Below, in pieces: positions 37,901 to 45,500 of a DNA stretch of 64,000 bases (position 1 is the stretch's first letter; each line of letters starts with the position of its first letter). Made by a program: the position numbers and the translations under genes. The notes under the pieces were generated by a model. It saw nothing but the letters and a program-made list of their open reading frames with translations, was not told the DNA's origin and ran no database searches. This DNA is from the human T2T-CHM13v2.0 reference genome, Homo sapiens: assembly GCF_009914755.1 (NCBI RefSeq), contig NC_060930.1. One strand, 5' to 3'.

Positions 37901-40900
37901 TCCTCATTTTTCTGACTTGTCACATTAGAGTTTAAGATTATGTTATAGGTGCTCAGAATTAATCACAGAATGTTAGTTTAGGTAGAAATAAAATATCTGG
38001 AAAGTCTGTATAGCTTATTTAAGTATTTTAAATGTTATACTATATTCTCAATAATAAGATAAAATTCCATTTTATGAATAGCCTCAACATTTAGTTAGAT
38101 AATTTGTTTTTTACCCTCAGACTTACCTTTTTCTCTGCACATTCTCTGCTTTGAAATTATGAATAATACAATAATAACATTTCAGATTTTAGAAAAATCT
38201 ATGATTTTTAAGTTACTCAAAGCAACATACACACACACATATATATATATATGCAGAAAGTGTATAAATTTTATATTTACCAGATACTTGTTTGGTATTC
38301 TTCAGAATCACACAACTATAAAATGGTGGCACTAAGGGTAAGATGAAGGGTTGGTTTCAAAAATCAATACTCCTTATCTTTGATTCATATCTATACTCAT
38401 AACAACATGGCCAATAACCGAGGCAATGAAATCTAATGAATACAAGTATGAATATTCAGAACTATAATTTATAATTTGTATCTATGCTTTCTATGGTTTT
38501 GAACACCAATTTTCTTCTTACCAGAAAATACAGTTTGTTTTGGCTCTCTCTAGGATAAAGTTGAAAAATCTTGCAGAGGTTTTTTTTTTTTTTTTTTTTT
38601 GGTGGTATGTGTGTGTGTGGTGGGGGTGATAATAATAATTTTCTGTGGATACTTGAGGCTGAATGAAGGCATCTCTCTGTGGTCCTGTTGCTTGTCTTCA
38701 TTATAGTGACATCATGTTTTGGAAACAGAGGTATAAGTGGCTTTTTGCTTCTTCCTTTTTTATCCTTCTGGAAGCTGTAGAAAAAAGTACTAAAATGAAT
38801 AACTAGCACTTGGTCCATGAAACTTAAGAGTGCTTTAAAAAAAGATAAAAAATTAGACTTAAACATTTTACTAAATGGGAGAACTTAAAAACCTGAATCA
38901 GAAACCCTGATATACATGGTTACATTACTGCTTGGGAGATTTCATTTTCATGTGCTACTTAATTTCAGTTACCCACTCCTATATTAAATATAGAGAGTAT
39001 ATCCTCTACATCTGTAGGAACTTCTTTTTATGGATATGAATTTTGAAAAATCTGTCCATCACTTAATAATTAACATGGCTAACTAAGATGTTTACTGATT
39101 CATTCATTTTAAATGCTATTCATTGATCAAATACTTGCTAAATACCAGTTGCAAACTAGGCATCCTGCTAGATGCTAAGGATAGAGAATATTAGAAAGGA
39201 AACTAATCAGAGAAAGCCAAATTGACCCATTTTGTTACTTATAATTTCAGAACTCTCTAAAACTCCGGTTATATTGAGTGAAGTGGTGGAAGTTTTCTTA
39301 AGCTTTGCACTGAAACCATTGCAGGACTTGTTTTAAGATTATTTAATGCCATAAGTCAGTGCTGTCTCTAGTAAGAAAGCTCATTCACAAAACATTATAG
39401 AATTTGCAAGGATCTATTTTGTAAGGAAGTGAGATCTGGTTATATTTTTCCTAAAAATCAGTACTGTTTGATTCTGTTTTTAAAAGTCCGATCAAAGACA
39501 AATTGGAAGCTATACAGGAGAAAGCAGGAGTGCTTCTGTTGTTTTAGGCAGTTACTTTTAACTCATGTTTCAGGTCAAACTTTAGTGAATGATGAACAAA
39601 AAGATAACTTCAGCCTTATGTTTGGATTGTCACACTGGATGCTATTTATTCTTTGTGGGCTTCTGATTGCAAATGAGGTGAGCATGGACTTTGGTGAATC
39701 AGTTTTGTTGACGCTATTGTTTTATCAAATAACTAATTTATTAAAAGAATGCATGAAGCTTCAGACTGTAATCAGTCCGTATTGGGAGAAAAAAAATCAT
39801 TTGTGGAACAGTTCAAATGCCAATGACTATAGTATTTTCCAGCTCTGAAAAAAAAAAAGAAGTAACTAGAAATGAATTATGTTAAGTTACTAACTGAATT
39901 TCTTCTGAAATCCCCAGAAACTGAACAAGAGATCAGAGATGTTTTGTGGGTTTCTTTTTGAAGTCAATCAAACAATAATGGTGATTGACACATTTGGTAC
40001 CTAAATGGTTTAACTTTTGGCTGTTGCGTCGATTTCATTAAATTCAATGAGATTTCTGTTATGCAGAACTTGCCAAAGAAAATTTGCATACCAGAAAGCA
40101 AGTAGTCATGGAATTTATCCATTAGCCTTTTTTTTCTCCTCCACCAAAGGTCAACAAATGCAAAGGTTTGATTCTGGATGGAGTTCATTTGGATGTGTCA
40201 CCAGGAAGGGTATCTTAGCATTGCAGGCTGCCGAAATTTGGAAGAATCCACCCTCATTGATTGTCTTTGTTCTTTGCTGGTTTACACAGCAAATATAGTG
40301 GAATATCTGATCTGCAAGGCCAGACATATAAATAATTTCACCTTTTCAGTGGCAGTTGAAGGCCTAATCCATAGCAAAGTTACTAAAGAAAAAGTTTTAT
40401 AGGTATTTAGTTTTTTCCCATGTTTTCTTGATCATTTTACTCCTAATTAAATCTCTCACCTCATTGCTGATATTAAGAATGGTGGTAGGAATAATTTTAG
40501 CCTTTGGGTTTTGTTGATTGATTTAAAAATGACAAGGTTTTTGTTAGTTATTCTGACTAGCCCTTAAATTATTATTTTAGAAAGTGCTTTCTCGTTGTCT
40601 GATGATTTGAGAAGTGGCCTGAAAAAAAACAAAGGTATTCCTCATGCTGTGGTTAAATGGAAGCTGAGATCTGCCAATCAATCCTTATCTACCAAATTTA
40701 ATTTAGAACATTGTGTTCTTCCATATCTAAAATAGCATAAATTTAGCAATACCATACTTTTTCACAGTGATGTTATGTTTAGTTTATGAAAATTATATTT
40801 TTTTGAAAAATTAGCATTATATTTCAATTCTACTTTTACTGTCATTATGAGAGGTGACAGCGTGCTGGCAGTCCTCAGAGCCCTCGCTTGCTCTCAGCAC

Positions 40901-41047
40901 CTCCCCTGCCTGGGCTCCCACTTTGGTGGCATTTGAGGAGCCCTTCAGTCCCCCACTGCACTGTGGGAGCCACTTTCTGGGCTGGCCAAGGCTGGAGCCC
41001 ACTCCCTTAGCCTGCAGGAAGGTGTGGAGGGAGAGGCGCGAGTGGGA

Positions 41048-41716
41048 ACCGGGGCTGCAGGTGGAGCTGCCTGCCAGTCCCGCGCCGTGCACTCGCATTC
41101 CTCAGCCCTTGGGTGGTCGATGGGACTGGGTGCCGTGGAGCAGGGGGTGGTGCTCGTCGAGGAGGCTCGGGCGGCACAGGAGCCCACGGAGGAGGGGGAG
41201 GCTCAGGCATGGCGGGCTGCAGGTCCCAAGCCCTGCCCCACGGGAAGGCAGCTAAGGCCCGGCGAGAAATCGGGCACAGCGCCGGTGGGCCGGCACTGCT
41301 GGGGGACTCAGTACACCTGGCGCTTGCGGGCCAGCTGGAGTTCCGGGTGGGCGTGGGCTTGGTGGGCCCCTGCACTCGGAGCAGCCAGCCAGCCCTGCTG
41401 GCCCCGGGCAATGGGGGACTTAGCACCTGGGCCAGTGGCTGCGGAGGGTGTACTGAGTCCCCCAGCAGTGCCGGCCCACCGGCGCTGTGCCCGATTTCTC
41501 GCCGGGCCTTAGCTGCCTTCCCGTGGGGCAGGGCTTGGGACCTGCAGCCCGCCATGCCTGAGCCTCCCCCTCCTCCGTGGGCTCCTGTGCCGCCCGAGCC
41601 TCCTCGACGAGCACCACCCCCTGCTCCACGGCACCCAGTCCCATCGACCACCCAAGGGCTGAGGAATGCGAGTGCACGGCGCGGGACTGGCAGGCAGCTC
41701 CACCTGCAGCCCCGGT
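41048..41716. repeat. Perfect 270-bp inverted repeat with 129-bp spacer
   Basis: 41048-41317 is the exact reverse complement of 41447-41716 on base-by-base reading. The ORF track shows identical peptides on opposite strands (e.g. [16 protein letters not shown]...). Confidence 0.97.
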
Positions 41717-41779
41717 GTGGGATCCACTGGGTGAAGCCAGCTGGGCTCCTGAGTCTGGTGGGAATGTGGAGAGTCTCTA

Positions 41780-42500
41780 TATCTAGCTCAGGGATTGTAA
41801 ATACACCAATCAGCACCCTGTGTTTAGCTCAAGGTTTGTGAGTGCACCAATTGACACTCTGTATCTAGCTGCTCTGGTGGGGCCTTGGAGAACCTGTGTG
41901 TCTAGCTCAGGGATTGTAAATACACCAATCGGCACTCTGTATCTAGCTCAACGTTTGTAAACACACCAATCAGCACCCTGTGTTTAGCTCAAGGTTTGTG
42001 AGTGCACCAATCGACACTCTGTATCTAGCTGCTCTGGTGAGGATGTGGAGAGTCTTTATATCTAGCTCAGGGATTGTAAACACACCAATCAGCACCCTGT
42101 GTTTAGCTCAAGGTTTGTGAGTGCACCAATCGACACTGTATCTAGCTGCTCTGGTGAGGACATGGAGAACCTTTATGTCTAGCTCAAGGATTGTAAATAC
42201 ACCAATCGGCACTCTGTATCTAGCTCAAGGTTTGTAAACACACCAATCAGCACCCTGTGTTTAGCTCAAGGTTTGTGAGTGCACCAATCGACACTCTGTA
42301 TCTAGCTGCTCTGGTGGGGCCTTGGAGAACCTGTGTGTGGAAACTCTGTATCTAACTAATCTGATGGGGACGTGGAGAACCTTTGTGTCTAGCTCAGGGA
42401 TTGTAAACGCACCAATCAGCGCCCTGACAAAACAGGCCACTCGGCTCTACCAATCAGCAGGATGTGGGTGGGGCCAGATAAGAGAATAAAAGCAGGCTGC
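41780..42500 (+). promoter_or_regulatory. LTR12C U3 enhancer/promoter array (NF-Y CCAAT repeats, GC box, TATA-like box)
   Basis: Tandem TCTAGCT...ACACCAATC units with 12 CCAAT boxes, then GTGGGTGGGG, AGATAA and AATAAAA. This is the established ERV9 LTR architecture; activity of this copy is unknown. Confidence 0.75.
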
Positions 42501-45500
42501 CGGAACCAGCATTGGCAACCCACTCGAGTCCCCTTCCACCTCGTGGAAGCTTTGTTCTTTCGCTCTTTGCAATAAATCTTGCTACTGTTCACTCTTTGGG
42601 TCCACGTTGCTTTTATGAGCTGTCACACTCACCGTGAAAATCTGCAGCTTCATTTCTGAGCCCAGCCAGACCACGAGCCCACCGGGAAGAACGAACAATT
42701 CCACAAGCGCTGCGTTAAGAGCTGTAACACTCAACCGTGAAGGTCTGCAGCTTCACTCCTGAGCCAGCGAGACCACGAACCCACCAGAAGGAAGAAACTC
42801 CGAACACATCTGAACAAAAAGGGACAGACTCCAGATGCGCCACCTTAAGAGCTGTAACACTCACTGCGAGGGTCGGCGGCTTCATTCTTGAAGTCAGTGA
42901 GACCAAGAACCCCCCAAATTCCAGACCCAATTAGATTTGTCATTAAATCTTTGGTCTGGGGAGGGTGAAGAGGGAAAGGTATTGATAATTAAAGCCCATT
43001 TCAGACAGGGAGGAAGAGAAAGCCAAGACCAGTCCAACCCAATTGGTAGGTTTACAAAATAGGCTGGAGAGAGTTAACCTCAAAAGGGTGCTGAGCCCAC
43101 TGGTATCTTGTGGGCTGAGGTTCAATTCATGGTCCCTCCTTGAATGGGGAGATGGAAGTATGGGGCAGAGAACTAGGCAGGGTTTATAATGAAATTAAAG
43201 GCAGAATTTCATGCCTGCAAATACAGTTAAAAGATAGAATGAAAAAAAAAAGCAAGGGGTTTAACTTAACTCAGTATTTGGTATTAGGACCTCAGGTCCT
43301 AGCTTATGCTTTTTGCCCTTGGCATACATACCCAGAAACTGGAGAATAAAAAAAGACGAAGGAAATTAGTCAGGATGTGAAACGCCATTAAGTATAACAG
43401 AGCAGCTGGGTTTGCAAAATTCAACTTTGGAAGATGGTTAGGAATTATTTTTCTATTTGGTTCTGTAACTGAAACAAGAGTCTAGGTGTTGACTTTTGAG
43501 AGTCAGAATATTCTCGGTGATATTGGTGCACTACAGATTTCAGAGGGATTCTGTGGTACAGTGCACTGTTCTCAACCCCCAAGTCTTCAATTTGTCTCCC
43601 GATAATAAATAATGTAAATAATGCTAAAATTAAATGAAAGGCCATTTCACAAGAAAACAAACAAACCCCTAAACATTAAAATGACAGAAGAGTCCCCAAA
43701 CAGAGTGGAAAGCCCTGGAGTGGTGGCCTCACCATGGTAAAACTAAATCATCAATACAAGCAGGTTCTAATAAACCATTCAGCGTGATAAAGGGGCGCTA
43801 TTATGTTACAAAGCCCAGAAGGCTCTGCTTACTGCTGCTACCATGAAGTGAATAGGTTAAAAGATTTTAAATGGGATTGCCATGGCTTTCTACAGCAAAA
43901 ATGCAGGGCTACAGGCAGATAACATGGCTTTATTAATGCAGATGCTGGGACACTAATACAAATTAGAAGTGTCTATGATGTTAGACAATTTGGTTTGTCT
44001 CATTCAAAAAATTAGTGGTCTTGGCCAGAAAGAAAACACACTTACAGAAAGGATTTTAGTAAGAGTCTATTTGGAAAATTAGTCAAGTTTTCCTATTTAA
44101 TAGAAGCTTCTAGAAGAAAAGTAATTGCCCAATTAATGTTTGTTTAATAATATTTTTCAGTGCTGATGATGTACTAGGTACTGTTCTGGGTACTCTTATG
44201 CTTGAAAAGGTCACTGTGTTTGTTTACAATATAGTCTCCTATCCATGAGGCCCAGCACTGGGCATACATTTATTCTATCTTTTATGTGGTTTGTATATAA
44301 CCATAGAAACCTTAAGAATAAAAAAAAACTCTTTTAAAAAGTTATGCACCCATTATTTTGACATTCTTCTCATTTTTGTCCATGTGATTCTAACCACTTC
44401 CTGACCTTTAGTGCTACAAAGTCAAACAAAAAAGAAATGAAGGTGAAGAGACAGTAACATTTCTAAATGCGGGTCAATATTATTGTGCAGCATTATGTGA
44501 GAGTCTGGCATCCCTTTGCTGATCACTAAAATTGGTTATGTTATAAATATTACCTGATGACTTGACATACAATTTTGTTCAGTATTGGAAAATGAAAAAA
44601 AAAGGATGTGAAATAGACTGTATTATGTTGATATAATCTCCTGGCAATAGAACCCTGGCACTGTACTACTGTCATGCTTTTAATTATGTAACTAAGTAAT
44701 CACACGTTAAAGTCTCATGGAAAATGATCCCTTATTCCCATGATACCCTATTTTATTGTTTTCTAAATGGGTTTCAGAATAACGATGCGAACTTGTATAG
44801 AAAAAAATTATTTATGGTATTATACTCTTTGTGCTTCTCATGTAATATAAAGATATGCTGTGGTTTTTTAGTTTTAATTTGTGCATGTTTTTTAAAAGTT
44901 GAAAGGTACTTACTCATAATGACAAAATGTTTTGGTGTGACTCAATATTGTTAAACTTTACTTATGGCAAAAATTGATGCAACATATATTAATAATTCTC
45001 CAGGAAACTGTTCTTTCATTGATTTATGGGGGGGTGTCCTAATAGATCAAGTTTTGCAATGGGTTGAATGTGTTGAAAACCCTGCCCTGGGTTGATTAGT
45101 CTGCAATGAACTCTTTAACTTGTTTTCCCAACTAATTGTGTTTATGTGTGACCATGTATGCATGTGTGCCCATGTATGCTTGTGCGCAGTTGTGTGTGTG
45201 TGTGTCTGTATGTATGTGTTTGTGGGGAAGGTTCACCAGATTATCTTTGATTCTTAATCTTTCAGAACTGGCACAATGTTAAAGTGGTTACTGCATGGTA
45301 TGAAGTGACCTAGGGGGTCTCTTCAAAAGCAGATAAGGATAAAAACTTAGGGAGAAAATATTTTTATTACTTTAATCAAAAGCCATAAACATAGTGGGTG
45401 TGACTGATCATTGAACAACAAGGTGCATTTGCACTTGGATATGCATTTGGATGGCTTTTGTCCTGACCTCTGTTCACACAACCATAACTAGTTTAATATG

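What the first reader, a model, noticed from the sequence alone, without database searches (positions are those of the whole stretch)
41048..41716. Perfect 270-bp GC-rich palindrome inside an LTR12C
Seen: arms 41048-41317 and 41447-41716 are exact reverse complements around a 129-bp spacer, with no mismatch found. They share this copy's private deviations from the recalled LTR12C consensus and remain CpG-rich. The standard LTR12C has this segment once. Perfect identity in an element that has otherwise diverged means one of three things: a very recent and perhaps polymorphic duplication, continuing arm-to-arm gene conversion, or an assembly artefact. Inferred consequences: hairpin formation and fragility, inversion toggling of the spacer, a mirrored GC-rich U3 module beside the NF-Y array, and a 270-bp perfect dsRNA stem (ADAR/PKR/Dicer substrate) in any read-through transcript, 12 kb downstream of a tumour-induced lncRNA.
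Basis: partly seen in the sequence, partly recalled or inferred. Interest (0 to 1): 0.88.

Follow-up and report, generated by a model that had tools for sequence, protein, structure and literature searches.

The report
Perfect inverted duplication inside solo LTR12C
One old retroviral LTR near the HULC gene carries a flawless 270-base back-to-front copy of part of itself, most likely the scar of a single DNA-copying slip with no sign of a function.

Summary
Arms 41048-41317 and 41447-41716 are 270 nt, 100% complementary, and 129 nt apart. They lie in a 2,082-bp solo LTR (40848-42929, TG...CA ends, 4-bp ATTA target duplication).

In all 18 other copies compared in detail the segment occurs once, in the right arm's orientation. 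The left arm is therefore the derived copy. It starts at an 11-nt inverted microhomology native to the family (ACCGGGGCTGC / GCAGCCCCGGT). It ends in a blunt junction that replaces about 3-4 nt. Both junctions are unique in T2T-CHM13, so no source element passed the duplication on.

The best reading is one post-integration template switch or snap-back repair event copying 259 nt. That is near the top of the reported human size range: mean 11.6 bp, longest 318 bp.

All five lineage-specific substitutions of the arm are mirrored. The event therefore falls in the last ~30% or less of the LTR's residence, or conversion keeps the arms equal. Zero differences still allow roughly 5-11 My, so "very recent" is not required.

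Fragility is tempered by the 129-nt spacer. The dsRNA consequence is only a fold prediction. Population and ape status could not be tested here. Moderate interest.

The parts
40844..40847 (.). Left target-site duplication ATTA
   Evidence: Read. The same 4 nt follow the LTR end at 42930-42933.
40848..42929 (+). Solo LTR of the LTR12/ERV9 kind, 2,082 bp, with TG...CA termini.
   Evidence: Alignments to 18 other copies start at 40841-40851 and end at 42916-42934. The flanks are AT-rich non-LTR DNA.
41048..41058 (+). Native 11-nt microhomology ACCGGGGCTGC: the outer end of the left arm and the inferred first switch point
   Evidence: This 11-mer is at this position in 14 of 18 other copies. Its reverse complement is at the right-arm outer end in 7 of 18. 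Both are intact in 6 of 18, 390-395 nt apart.
41048..41317 (-). Left arm: the derived, inverted copy of the right arm. Positions 41059-41317 are the 259 nt absent from other copies.
   Evidence: Other copies run straight from the 11-mer through about 4 nt (mostly GTGC) into GGCGCTTGCGGG. In one search every other locus matched this part on the strand opposite to its spacer.
41318..41446 (+). Spacer of 129 nt, in canonical LTR sequence and orientation. Position 41318 (T) is the return junction, where other copies mostly have C.
   Evidence: Alignments to other copies resume at 41319-41322, colinear with the 5' part and the right arm.
41447..41716 (+). Right arm: the original segment in canonical place and orientation. 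Positions 41706-41716 (GCAGCCCCGGT) are the partner of the microhomology.
   Evidence: Both of its borders are continuous with flanking LTR sequence, as in 18 of 18 other copies.
41806..42454 (+). U3 tandem-repeat array with 12 CCAAT motifs on the + strand; starts 90 nt after the right arm
   Evidence: One search gives the CCAAT positions. One search gives direct-repeat families D1 and D2. The layout matches the LTR12 description in PMC11853044 (passages).
42930..42933 (.). Right target-site duplication ATTA

Best explanation
This is a mutational scar, not a device. After the LTR had integrated and picked up most of its own substitutions, one local event copied 259 nt of its GC-rich 5' U3 region in reverse orientation. 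The copy landed about 390 nt upstream, inside the same LTR.

Inferred course. A growing 3' end finishing in ACCGGGGCTGC (41048-41058) paired with the complementary GCAGCCCCGGT at 41706-41716. It copied leftwards to 41447. It then rejoined its original template at 41318 with no evident microhomology, losing about 3 nt.

The mirror-image route gives the same product. That route is snap-back synthesis from the other side of a double-strand break, sealed by annealing of the 11-nt microhomology. The two routes cannot be told apart from the sequence.

The result is a perfect 270-nt inverted repeat with a 129-nt spacer. The arms are still identical most simply because the event is young relative to the element: within the last ~30% or less of its residence, roughly 5 My or less if the CpGs are methylated.

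No function is indicated. The likely consequences are a modest hairpin-forming potential in single-stranded DNA and a long perfect RNA duplex if the host intron is transcribed.

Shown: the anatomy, the polarity, the junctions and the uniqueness. Inferred: the mechanism, the timing and the consequences.
For: Structure and polarity. The arms are exact. In 18 of 18 other copies the segment occurs once, in the right arm's orientation. The left site in those copies reads 11-mer, then about 4 nt, then GGCGCTTGCGGG.

Microhomology. The 11-nt inverted pair is native to the family: left 14 of 18, right 7 of 18, both 6 of 18, 390-395 nt apart.

Uniqueness. The inner junction has 1 hit in the genome at up to 3 mismatches and 0 for the reversed control. 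The outer-junction pattern has 11 hits. Nine are ordinary right-arm ends read on the other strand, one is an ordinary left site, and only the window is a junction. No locus other than the window's own had the arm on both strands among the 40 scored of 2,496 candidates. None of 26 other loci has an LTR-internal inverted copy.

Timing. The arm carries 2 private and 3 rare sites against 29 copies chosen on a different part of the LTR. The same five sites appear against 18 copies chosen on the arm. All five are mirrored and no arm-specific difference exists. With k=5 the Poisson bound is 0.30 of the element's age at most, median 0.07.

Precedent. Short-range template-switch mutations in human haplotypes have a mean of 11.6 bp and a longest case of 318 bp (section 5 of bioRxiv 10.1101/2021.11.26.470150). 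The four-point model is described in passages of PMC5453318. Foldback-templated inverted insertions at breaks are reported in PMC11724301, PMC2943611 and PMC5728401 (search listing and abstract starts only).
Against: No orthologous empty site, other human haplotype or ape genome could be examined. The ancestral state is therefore inferred from paralogous copies only.

The return junction shows no microhomology, and the T at 41318 is unexplained. It may be CpG decay of the usual C, or an untemplated base.

At 259 nt the copy is about 20 times the mean reported template-switch length. It is also far longer than the 5-34 bp typical of foldback insertions in yeast (abstract start of PMC11724301).

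If only the 2 strictly private sites are counted, the timing bound loosens. A Poisson bound of 3/(2k) gives about 0.75 of the element's age (own arithmetic, not run in a call).

The two comparator sets share at least 3 loci: L041 is the place of L015, L046 of L013, and L056 of L018.
Confidence: 0.78

Rival explanations
1. The duplication is old, made several million years ago or more, possibly before the human-chimpanzee split. The arms are kept identical by recurrent arm-to-arm gene conversion or by repeated template switching that homogenises inverted repeats.
For: Perfect identity over 270 nt with 20 mutable CpGs per arm is what conversion would give. Template switching between inverted-repeat arms is reported to homogenise arms (abstract start of PMC8604942). 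The origin by template switch described in the best explanation is compatible with this later history.
Against: Conversion is not needed. Zero differences is unsurprising for any age below about 1-3 My and is not excluded up to about 5-11 My (using recalled rates). The arms are short, and the well-known conversion-maintained primate palindromes have arms of kilobases or more (recalled, not tested). The spacer is in ancestral orientation, although crossover-type exchange between arms would flip it about half the time.
Confidence: 0.12
2. The left arm is not in the germline genome of the population. It is either an assembly or polishing error, or a mutation private to the CHM13 cell line.
For: Only one assembly could be examined. 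No independent sequence with the junction was found in two other collections, but those hold microbial and viral contigs, so this says almost nothing.
Against: The structure has the marks of a biological event. These are an 11-nt native microhomology at one junction, a small deletion at the other, and a 129-nt unduplicated spacer. The whole 669-nt structure is much shorter than the long reads used for such assemblies (established knowledge, not tested). The locus is not in a segmental duplication, since the best non-self match to the region is 95%.
Confidence: 0.06
3. The inverted copy was made by reverse transcriptase template switching during the retrotransposition that created this insertion. 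It would then be as old as the LTR.
For: Retroviral reverse transcriptases switch templates readily (established knowledge). An error in U3 would be carried into the integrated element.
Against: The arm has 2-5 lineage-specific substitutions, and all are mirrored. If the arms had diverged independently since integration, 4-10 differences would be expected, giving a probability of none of 0.018 down to 0.00005 (own arithmetic from those counts). No other copy carries either junction, so no source element had it.
Confidence: 0.03

Closest known systems
Short-range template-switch mutations (four-point model; Loytynoja and Goldman 2017, PMC5453318; Loytynoja 2022 preprint 10.1101/2021.11.26.470150)
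   Same: A nearby segment is copied in reverse complement and inserted, creating a perfect inverted repeat or hairpin. The switch points lie within a few hundred bases of each other. The ancestral state can be inferred without an outgroup. Such events are often found in or near repeats.
   Different: The size is 259 nt, against a reported mean of 11.6 bp and a longest case of 318 bp. The first switch uses an unusually long 11-nt pre-existing inverted microhomology.
Snap-back or foldback templated inverted insertions at double-strand breaks (SD-MMEJ, Pol-theta end joining, MMBIR; PMC2943611, PMC5728401, PMC11724301, PMC8421209; listing and abstract starts only)
   Same: An inverted templated copy of adjacent sequence, with one junction resolved by microhomology annealing and the other apparently blunt with a small deletion.
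   Different: Reported foldback insertions are mostly 5-34 bp. Here the copy is 259 nt with a 129-nt loop, in the germline and in a GC-rich LTR.
Inverted-repeat Alu pairs as endogenous dsRNA sources (as described in 10.1101/2024.01.15.575744, passages)
   Same: Two inverted copies about 300 nt long within one transcription unit, predicted to pair into a long RNA duplex.
   Different: The arms here are 100% identical, against 81-89% for the other inverted pairs in this window. They are GC-rich LTR sequence. No expression or editing evidence is available here.
Fragile long inverted repeats and quasi-palindromes studied in yeast (PMC8053094, PMC10164571)
   Same: Perfect arms of about 300 nt.
   Different: The spacer is 129 nt. 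Fork blocking and MRX/Sae2 attack need spacers of 8 bp or less. Recombination falls about 300-fold from 12 to 100 bp. Strong fragility in duplex DNA is therefore not expected. Interaction in long single-stranded DNA remains possible.
Conversion-maintained palindromes of primate sex chromosomes (recalled, from no call)
   Same: Near-perfect arm identity around a unique spacer.
   Different: Those arms are kilobases to megabases long, carry genes and are conserved across species. This one is 270 nt inside a single repeat element, and conservation could not be tested.

Membership tests
LTR12 / ERV9 solo LTR | Full-length sequence similarity to other genomic copies of the family | tested here: met
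   Identity to dozens of copies is 87-95% over the 5' part, spacer, arm, tandem array and 3' 500 nt. The first looks found 2,496 and 3,658 candidates.
LTR12 / ERV9 solo LTR | U3 with 5-17 tandem repeats of about 41 nt carrying CCAAT (NF-Y) motifs, as described in PMC11853044 | tested here: met
   There are 12 CCAAT motifs on the + strand at 41806-42450, many 41 nt apart. Direct-repeat families D1 and D2 cover the array. NF-Y binding itself was not tested.
LTR12 / ERV9 solo LTR | TG...CA termini and a short target-site duplication with no internal proviral sequence beside it | tested here: met
   The LTR starts TG at 40848 and ends CA at 42929. ATTA lies on both sides, and the flanks are non-LTR.
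LTR12 / ERV9 solo LTR | Assignment to subfamily C rather than 12, 12B, 12D, 12E or 12F | not testable with these tools
No repeat library (Dfam or RepeatMasker) is on hand.
Short-range template-switch mutation | The inserted segment is the exact reverse complement of sequence nearby on the same molecule | tested here: met
   270 of 270 nt, with the source 129 nt away.
Short-range template-switch mutation | An ancestral allele without the insert | tested here: inconclusive
   Shown only through paralogues: 18 of 18 other copies lack it. The orthologous empty allele in other humans or apes could not be examined.
Short-range template-switch mutation | Junctions explained by two switches, with microhomology as optional support | tested here: met
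   The first junction lies in an 11-nt native inverted microhomology. The second is blunt with about 3 nt lost.
Conversion-maintained palindrome | Arms co-varying within a lineage while differing between lineages | not testable with these tools
   Only one human assembly is held.
Fragile quasi-palindrome | A spacer short enough for hairpin or cruciform formation: 8-12 bp or less in the yeast work read | tested here: not met
   The spacer is 129 nt.
Known structured RNA or miRNA hairpin family | A match to an Rfam model at its gathering score | tested here: not met
   One search gave only mir-3102 (28 bits against 61) and mir-584 (21 bits against 80), both far below threshold.
Endogenous dsRNA source of the IR-Alu type | Both arms in one transcript, with A-to-I editing or dsRNA capture | not testable with these tools
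   Only the fold is available, plus the hub annotation placing the site in an intron of LOC100506207.

The most novel reading that the evidence does not exclude
The palindrome may be a human-specific and possibly polymorphic allele. When the surrounding lncRNA intron is transcribed, or the region is derepressed in liver cancer or under DNMT/HDAC inhibitors, it would yield a mismatch-free 270-bp GC-rich dsRNA. That duplex would be far more perfect than IR-Alu duplexes. It could act as an unusually potent ADAR1, MDA5 or PKR substrate or as a source of endogenous siRNAs against LTR12C transcripts. Carriers and non-carriers would then differ in 'viral mimicry' responses.
Probability: 0.05. Interest if true: 0.7.

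Novelty: new member of a known kind. Interest (0 to 1): 0.35.

Why it matters
This is a clean natural example, near the upper size limit, of a local template-switch or snap-back event in the human germline. Both junctions can be read, and the predisposing 11-nt inverted microhomology is visible in sister copies.

It shows how a repeat family can carry a latent hairpin-making site. Six of 18 sampled copies still have both halves intact.

It also falls outside the standard non-B DNA catalogue of the T2T genomes, which caps inverted-repeat loops at 100 bp (passages of PMC11995269). Structures of this class are therefore under-listed.

Practically, if the allele is polymorphic, short-read pipelines are likely to miss or mis-call it. 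The abstract of the Loytynoja preprint warns of this for much smaller events. Nothing here points to a biological role.

Tried and rejected

2. I looked for the inner junction in independent DNA. There were 0 hits in genome contigs and 0 in viral contigs. Those collections are microbial and viral, so this is uninformative about human variation.

3. I tried to learn whether GRCh38 carries the extra 259 nt by searching the one held supplement of PMC12229592 for coordinates near the expected hg38 place. The only hit was an unrelated decimal number.

4. The Rfam scan gave only two sub-threshold miRNA-model matches, rejected as chance.

5. The first self-comparison script missed the window's own palindrome because of a filter error. 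It was corrected, and only one search is used.

6. Counts of private sites used comparators chosen on the arm itself, which biases them. They were repeated with 29 copies chosen on the 3' 500 nt and gave the same five sites. The sets overlap in at least 3 loci.

7. The anchor-based script found no anchor in 5 of 26 loci. The 14/18, 7/18 and 6/18 figures are read and agree where both apply.

8. Literature. 'LTR12C' with 'inverted repeat' gave 10 papers, 8 listed. The one with both terms in its abstract means inverted Alus. 'HULC' with 'LTR12C' gave 2 papers. In PMC5134097 the two terms are unrelated, since HULC's promoter is an MLT1A LTR. The other paper, PMC11476766, was not opened. From these two searches I found no printed description of this palindrome. 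Subscription journals and supplements were not searched.

9. No consensus of the LTR family was built, so 'deviation from consensus' is replaced throughout by counts of sites that other copies do not share.

Full report
OBSERVATION

The repeat finder reports a single inverted pair in 40000-43500: arms 41048-41317 and 41447-41716, 270 nt, 100% complementary, 129 nt apart. A direct string comparison confirms this and shows that pairing stops exactly at both ends of the arms.

As single-stranded DNA the 669 nt fold into one uninterrupted stem at -470.3 kcal/mol, against -177.3 +/- 6.0 for 20 shuffles. As RNA the figures are -771.3 against -364.4.

In the whole 64-kb window the other nine inverted pairs of 60 nt or more within 5 kb are 81-89% complementary, with spacers of 1.4 kb or more. 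This pair is a clear outlier.

Each arm has GC 71.5%, 20 CpG and observed/expected CpG of 0.60. The rest of the LTR has 0.20-0.42.

THE ELEMENT

Alignment to other genomic copies delimits an LTR from 40848 (TG) to 42929 (CA). The same four bases, ATTA, lie on either side (40844-40847 and 42930-42933), and the flanks are AT-rich and unrelated. It is therefore a solo LTR with an intact target-site duplication.

Downstream of the right arm lies the tandem-repeat part of U3, with 12 CCAAT motifs between 41806 and 42450. This is the layout described for LTR12 elements in the passages of PMC11853044 that I read.

No repeat library was available to confirm it.

By the hub's annotation the site lies 11.9 kb downstream of HULC, inside an intron of LOC100506207 on the same strand.

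WHICH ARM IS NEW

I searched the window's own assembly with 41000-41460. The tool scored 40 of 2,496 candidates. The window's own locus was the only one in which the arm matched on both strands. In every other locus the arm matched on one strand and the spacer, directly adjacent, on the other. That is the arrangement of spacer plus right arm.

Eighteen of these copies (L003-L020) were aligned in detail. In all 18 the segment occurs once, with the right arm's orientation and neighbours. The left site in those copies reads ACCGGGGCTGC, then about four bases (GTGC in most), then GGCGCTTGCGGG.

In the window the same 11-mer is followed by 259 extra bases (41059-41317), then a T, then GGCGCTTGCGGG. 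The left arm is therefore the derived copy. The spacer keeps the ancestral orientation.

THE JUNCTIONS

The outer 11 nt of the arms are not new. ACCGGGGCTGC at the left site and its reverse complement GCAGCCCCGGT at the right arm's outer end are native to the family.

- Left 11-mer intact in 14 of 18 copies.
- Right 11-mer intact in 7 of 18 copies.
- Both intact in 6 of 18 copies, 390-395 nt apart.

So the event began, or ended, by pairing of a pre-existing 11-nt inverted microhomology. It could be 12 nt if the local base at 41059 was already A. One other copy, seen, has that variant.

The inner junction (41317/41318) shows no microhomology. About three bases present in other copies are missing. 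The T at 41318 stands where others mostly have a C of a CpG.

UNIQUENESS

The inner-junction 32-mer occurs once in 3.1 Gb at up to three mismatches. The reversed control gave 0.

A 32-nt pattern across the outer junction gave 11 hits:
- 9 are ordinary right-arm ends read on the other strand.
- 1 is an ordinary left site.
- Only the window is a true junction.

Self-comparison of 26 distinct other loci found no LTR-internal inverted copy (one search is discarded because of a filter error). The remaining inverted pairs there were 73-85% identical, plus one perfect 108-nt pair outside an LTR (see 'In passing').

MECHANISM (INFERRED)

The anatomy fits a single switch-and-return event. A 3' end finishing in the 11-mer pairs with its complement about 390 nt downstream. 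It copies 259 nt backwards to 41447 and returns to 41318.

The mirror-image route gives the identical product. In that route the other side of a break snaps back on itself with a 129-nt loop, copies the segment, and the new 11-mer anneals to the opposite end.

Both routes are known kinds of event. Short-range template-switch mutations are documented in human haplotypes, with a mean length of 11.6 bp and a longest case of 318 bp (section 5 of 10.1101/2021.11.26.470150; the model is in passages of PMC5453318). Foldback-templated inverted insertions at breaks appear in PMC11724301, PMC2943611 and PMC5728401, of which I saw only the listing and abstract starts. At 259 nt this case sits near the top of the reported size range.

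TIMING

Against 29 copies chosen on a different part of the LTR, the right arm has 2 sites found in none of them and 3 found in 10% or fewer. The same five sites stood out against the 18 copies chosen on the arm. The two sets share at least three loci.

All five sites are mirrored in the left arm, and there is no arm-specific difference. Treating those five as this LTR's own substitutions, the event falls within the last 30% of the element's residence at the 95% level, with a median of 7%. With only the two strictly private sites the bound is much looser.

Duplication at the moment of integration, for example by reverse-transcriptase switching, would predict 4-10 arm differences. That gives a probability of none between 0.018 and 0.00005 (own arithmetic).

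I also used recalled mutation rates: 0.4e-9 per site per year, and 1-5e-9 for CpG positions. Under these, zero differences has a median age of 1.2-2.6 My and a 95% bound of 5-11 My.

Perfect identity therefore shows that the event is young relative to the LTR. It does not show that it is very recent or polymorphic. Gene conversion is possible but not required.

CONSEQUENCES

The fragility claim must be tempered by the yeast work I read:
- Fork blocking and MRX/Sae2 attack need spacers of 8 bp or less (PMC8053094).
- Recombination falls about 300-fold from a 12-bp to a 100-bp spacer.
- Rearrangements fall about 20-fold from a 12-bp to a 200-bp spacer (PMC10164571).
- The same paper shows that widely spaced repeats still interact in long single-stranded DNA.

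The RNA stem is a prediction only. By the LTR12 layout described, the LTR's own start site lies downstream of the palindrome. Only read-through of the host intron would carry both arms.

No Rfam family matches.

The T2T non-B DNA annotation caps inverted-repeat loops at 100 bp (PMC11995269). This structure as a whole would therefore not be listed there.

WHAT REMAINS OPEN

I could not examine presence in other humans, in GRCh38 or in apes, the raw-read support, methylation or transcription. One attempt through a paper's supplement found nothing. bioRxiv supplements, which might list long template-switch loci, are closed.

Two literature searches turned up no description of this palindrome. That covers open-access full text only.

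IN PASSING

Beside another LTR of the family on contig 7 there is a 189-nt, 98% inverted pair with a 605-nt spacer. Its second arm sits inside the 3' end of an Alu. Finding it by accident in about 80 kb of sampled loci suggests that local inverted templated copies of a few hundred bases are not extremely rare.

VERDICT

The feature is real and well defined, and its origin can be read from the sequence. It is a new, large member of a known class of mutation, with no evidence of function. Interest is moderate.

Noticed in passing
L032:870-1058 and 1664-1852 (G000 contig 7, about 153,904,369-153,905,351): A second high-identity inverted pair: 189 nt, 98% complementary, 605-nt spacer. It lies about 250 nt beyond another LTR of the same family. 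The right arm sits inside the 3' end of an Alu, between the Alu body and its A-tail, so it looks like another inverted templated insertion.
   Followed up: partly
window 40840-40847 and 42939-42946: The 8-mer TGTCATTA occurs just before the LTR and again 9 nt after it. The pre-integration site therefore already held a small direct repeat around the ATTA target duplication.
   Followed up: no
window 42631-42894: The 3' end of the LTR (R/U5 side) holds direct repeats spaced 103-130 nt apart (families D3 and D4). The LTR12 review read describes U5 as varying in length through varying numbers of 72-bp repeats.
   Followed up: no
window 41170-41594 (hub annotation): NCBI's soft-masked stretch 41170-41594 is exactly symmetrical about the palindrome centre (41382). 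This is expected if the masker counts words on both strands. It is a reminder that the mask does not follow repeat-element borders here.
   Followed up: no
L003 (G000 contig 6, 8,755,199-8,758,469): One of the three copies most like the arm (95.2%, tied with L004 and L005) lies only about 220 kb downstream on the same chromosome, in the opposite orientation. It is probably a coincidence.
   Followed up: no
window 41031-41105 and 41282-41489: Sub-threshold Rfam matches to miRNA precursor models: mir-3102 at 28 bits against a gathering score of 61, and mir-584 at 21 bits against 80. These are taken as chance matches to GC-rich hairpin-prone sequence.
   Followed up: yes
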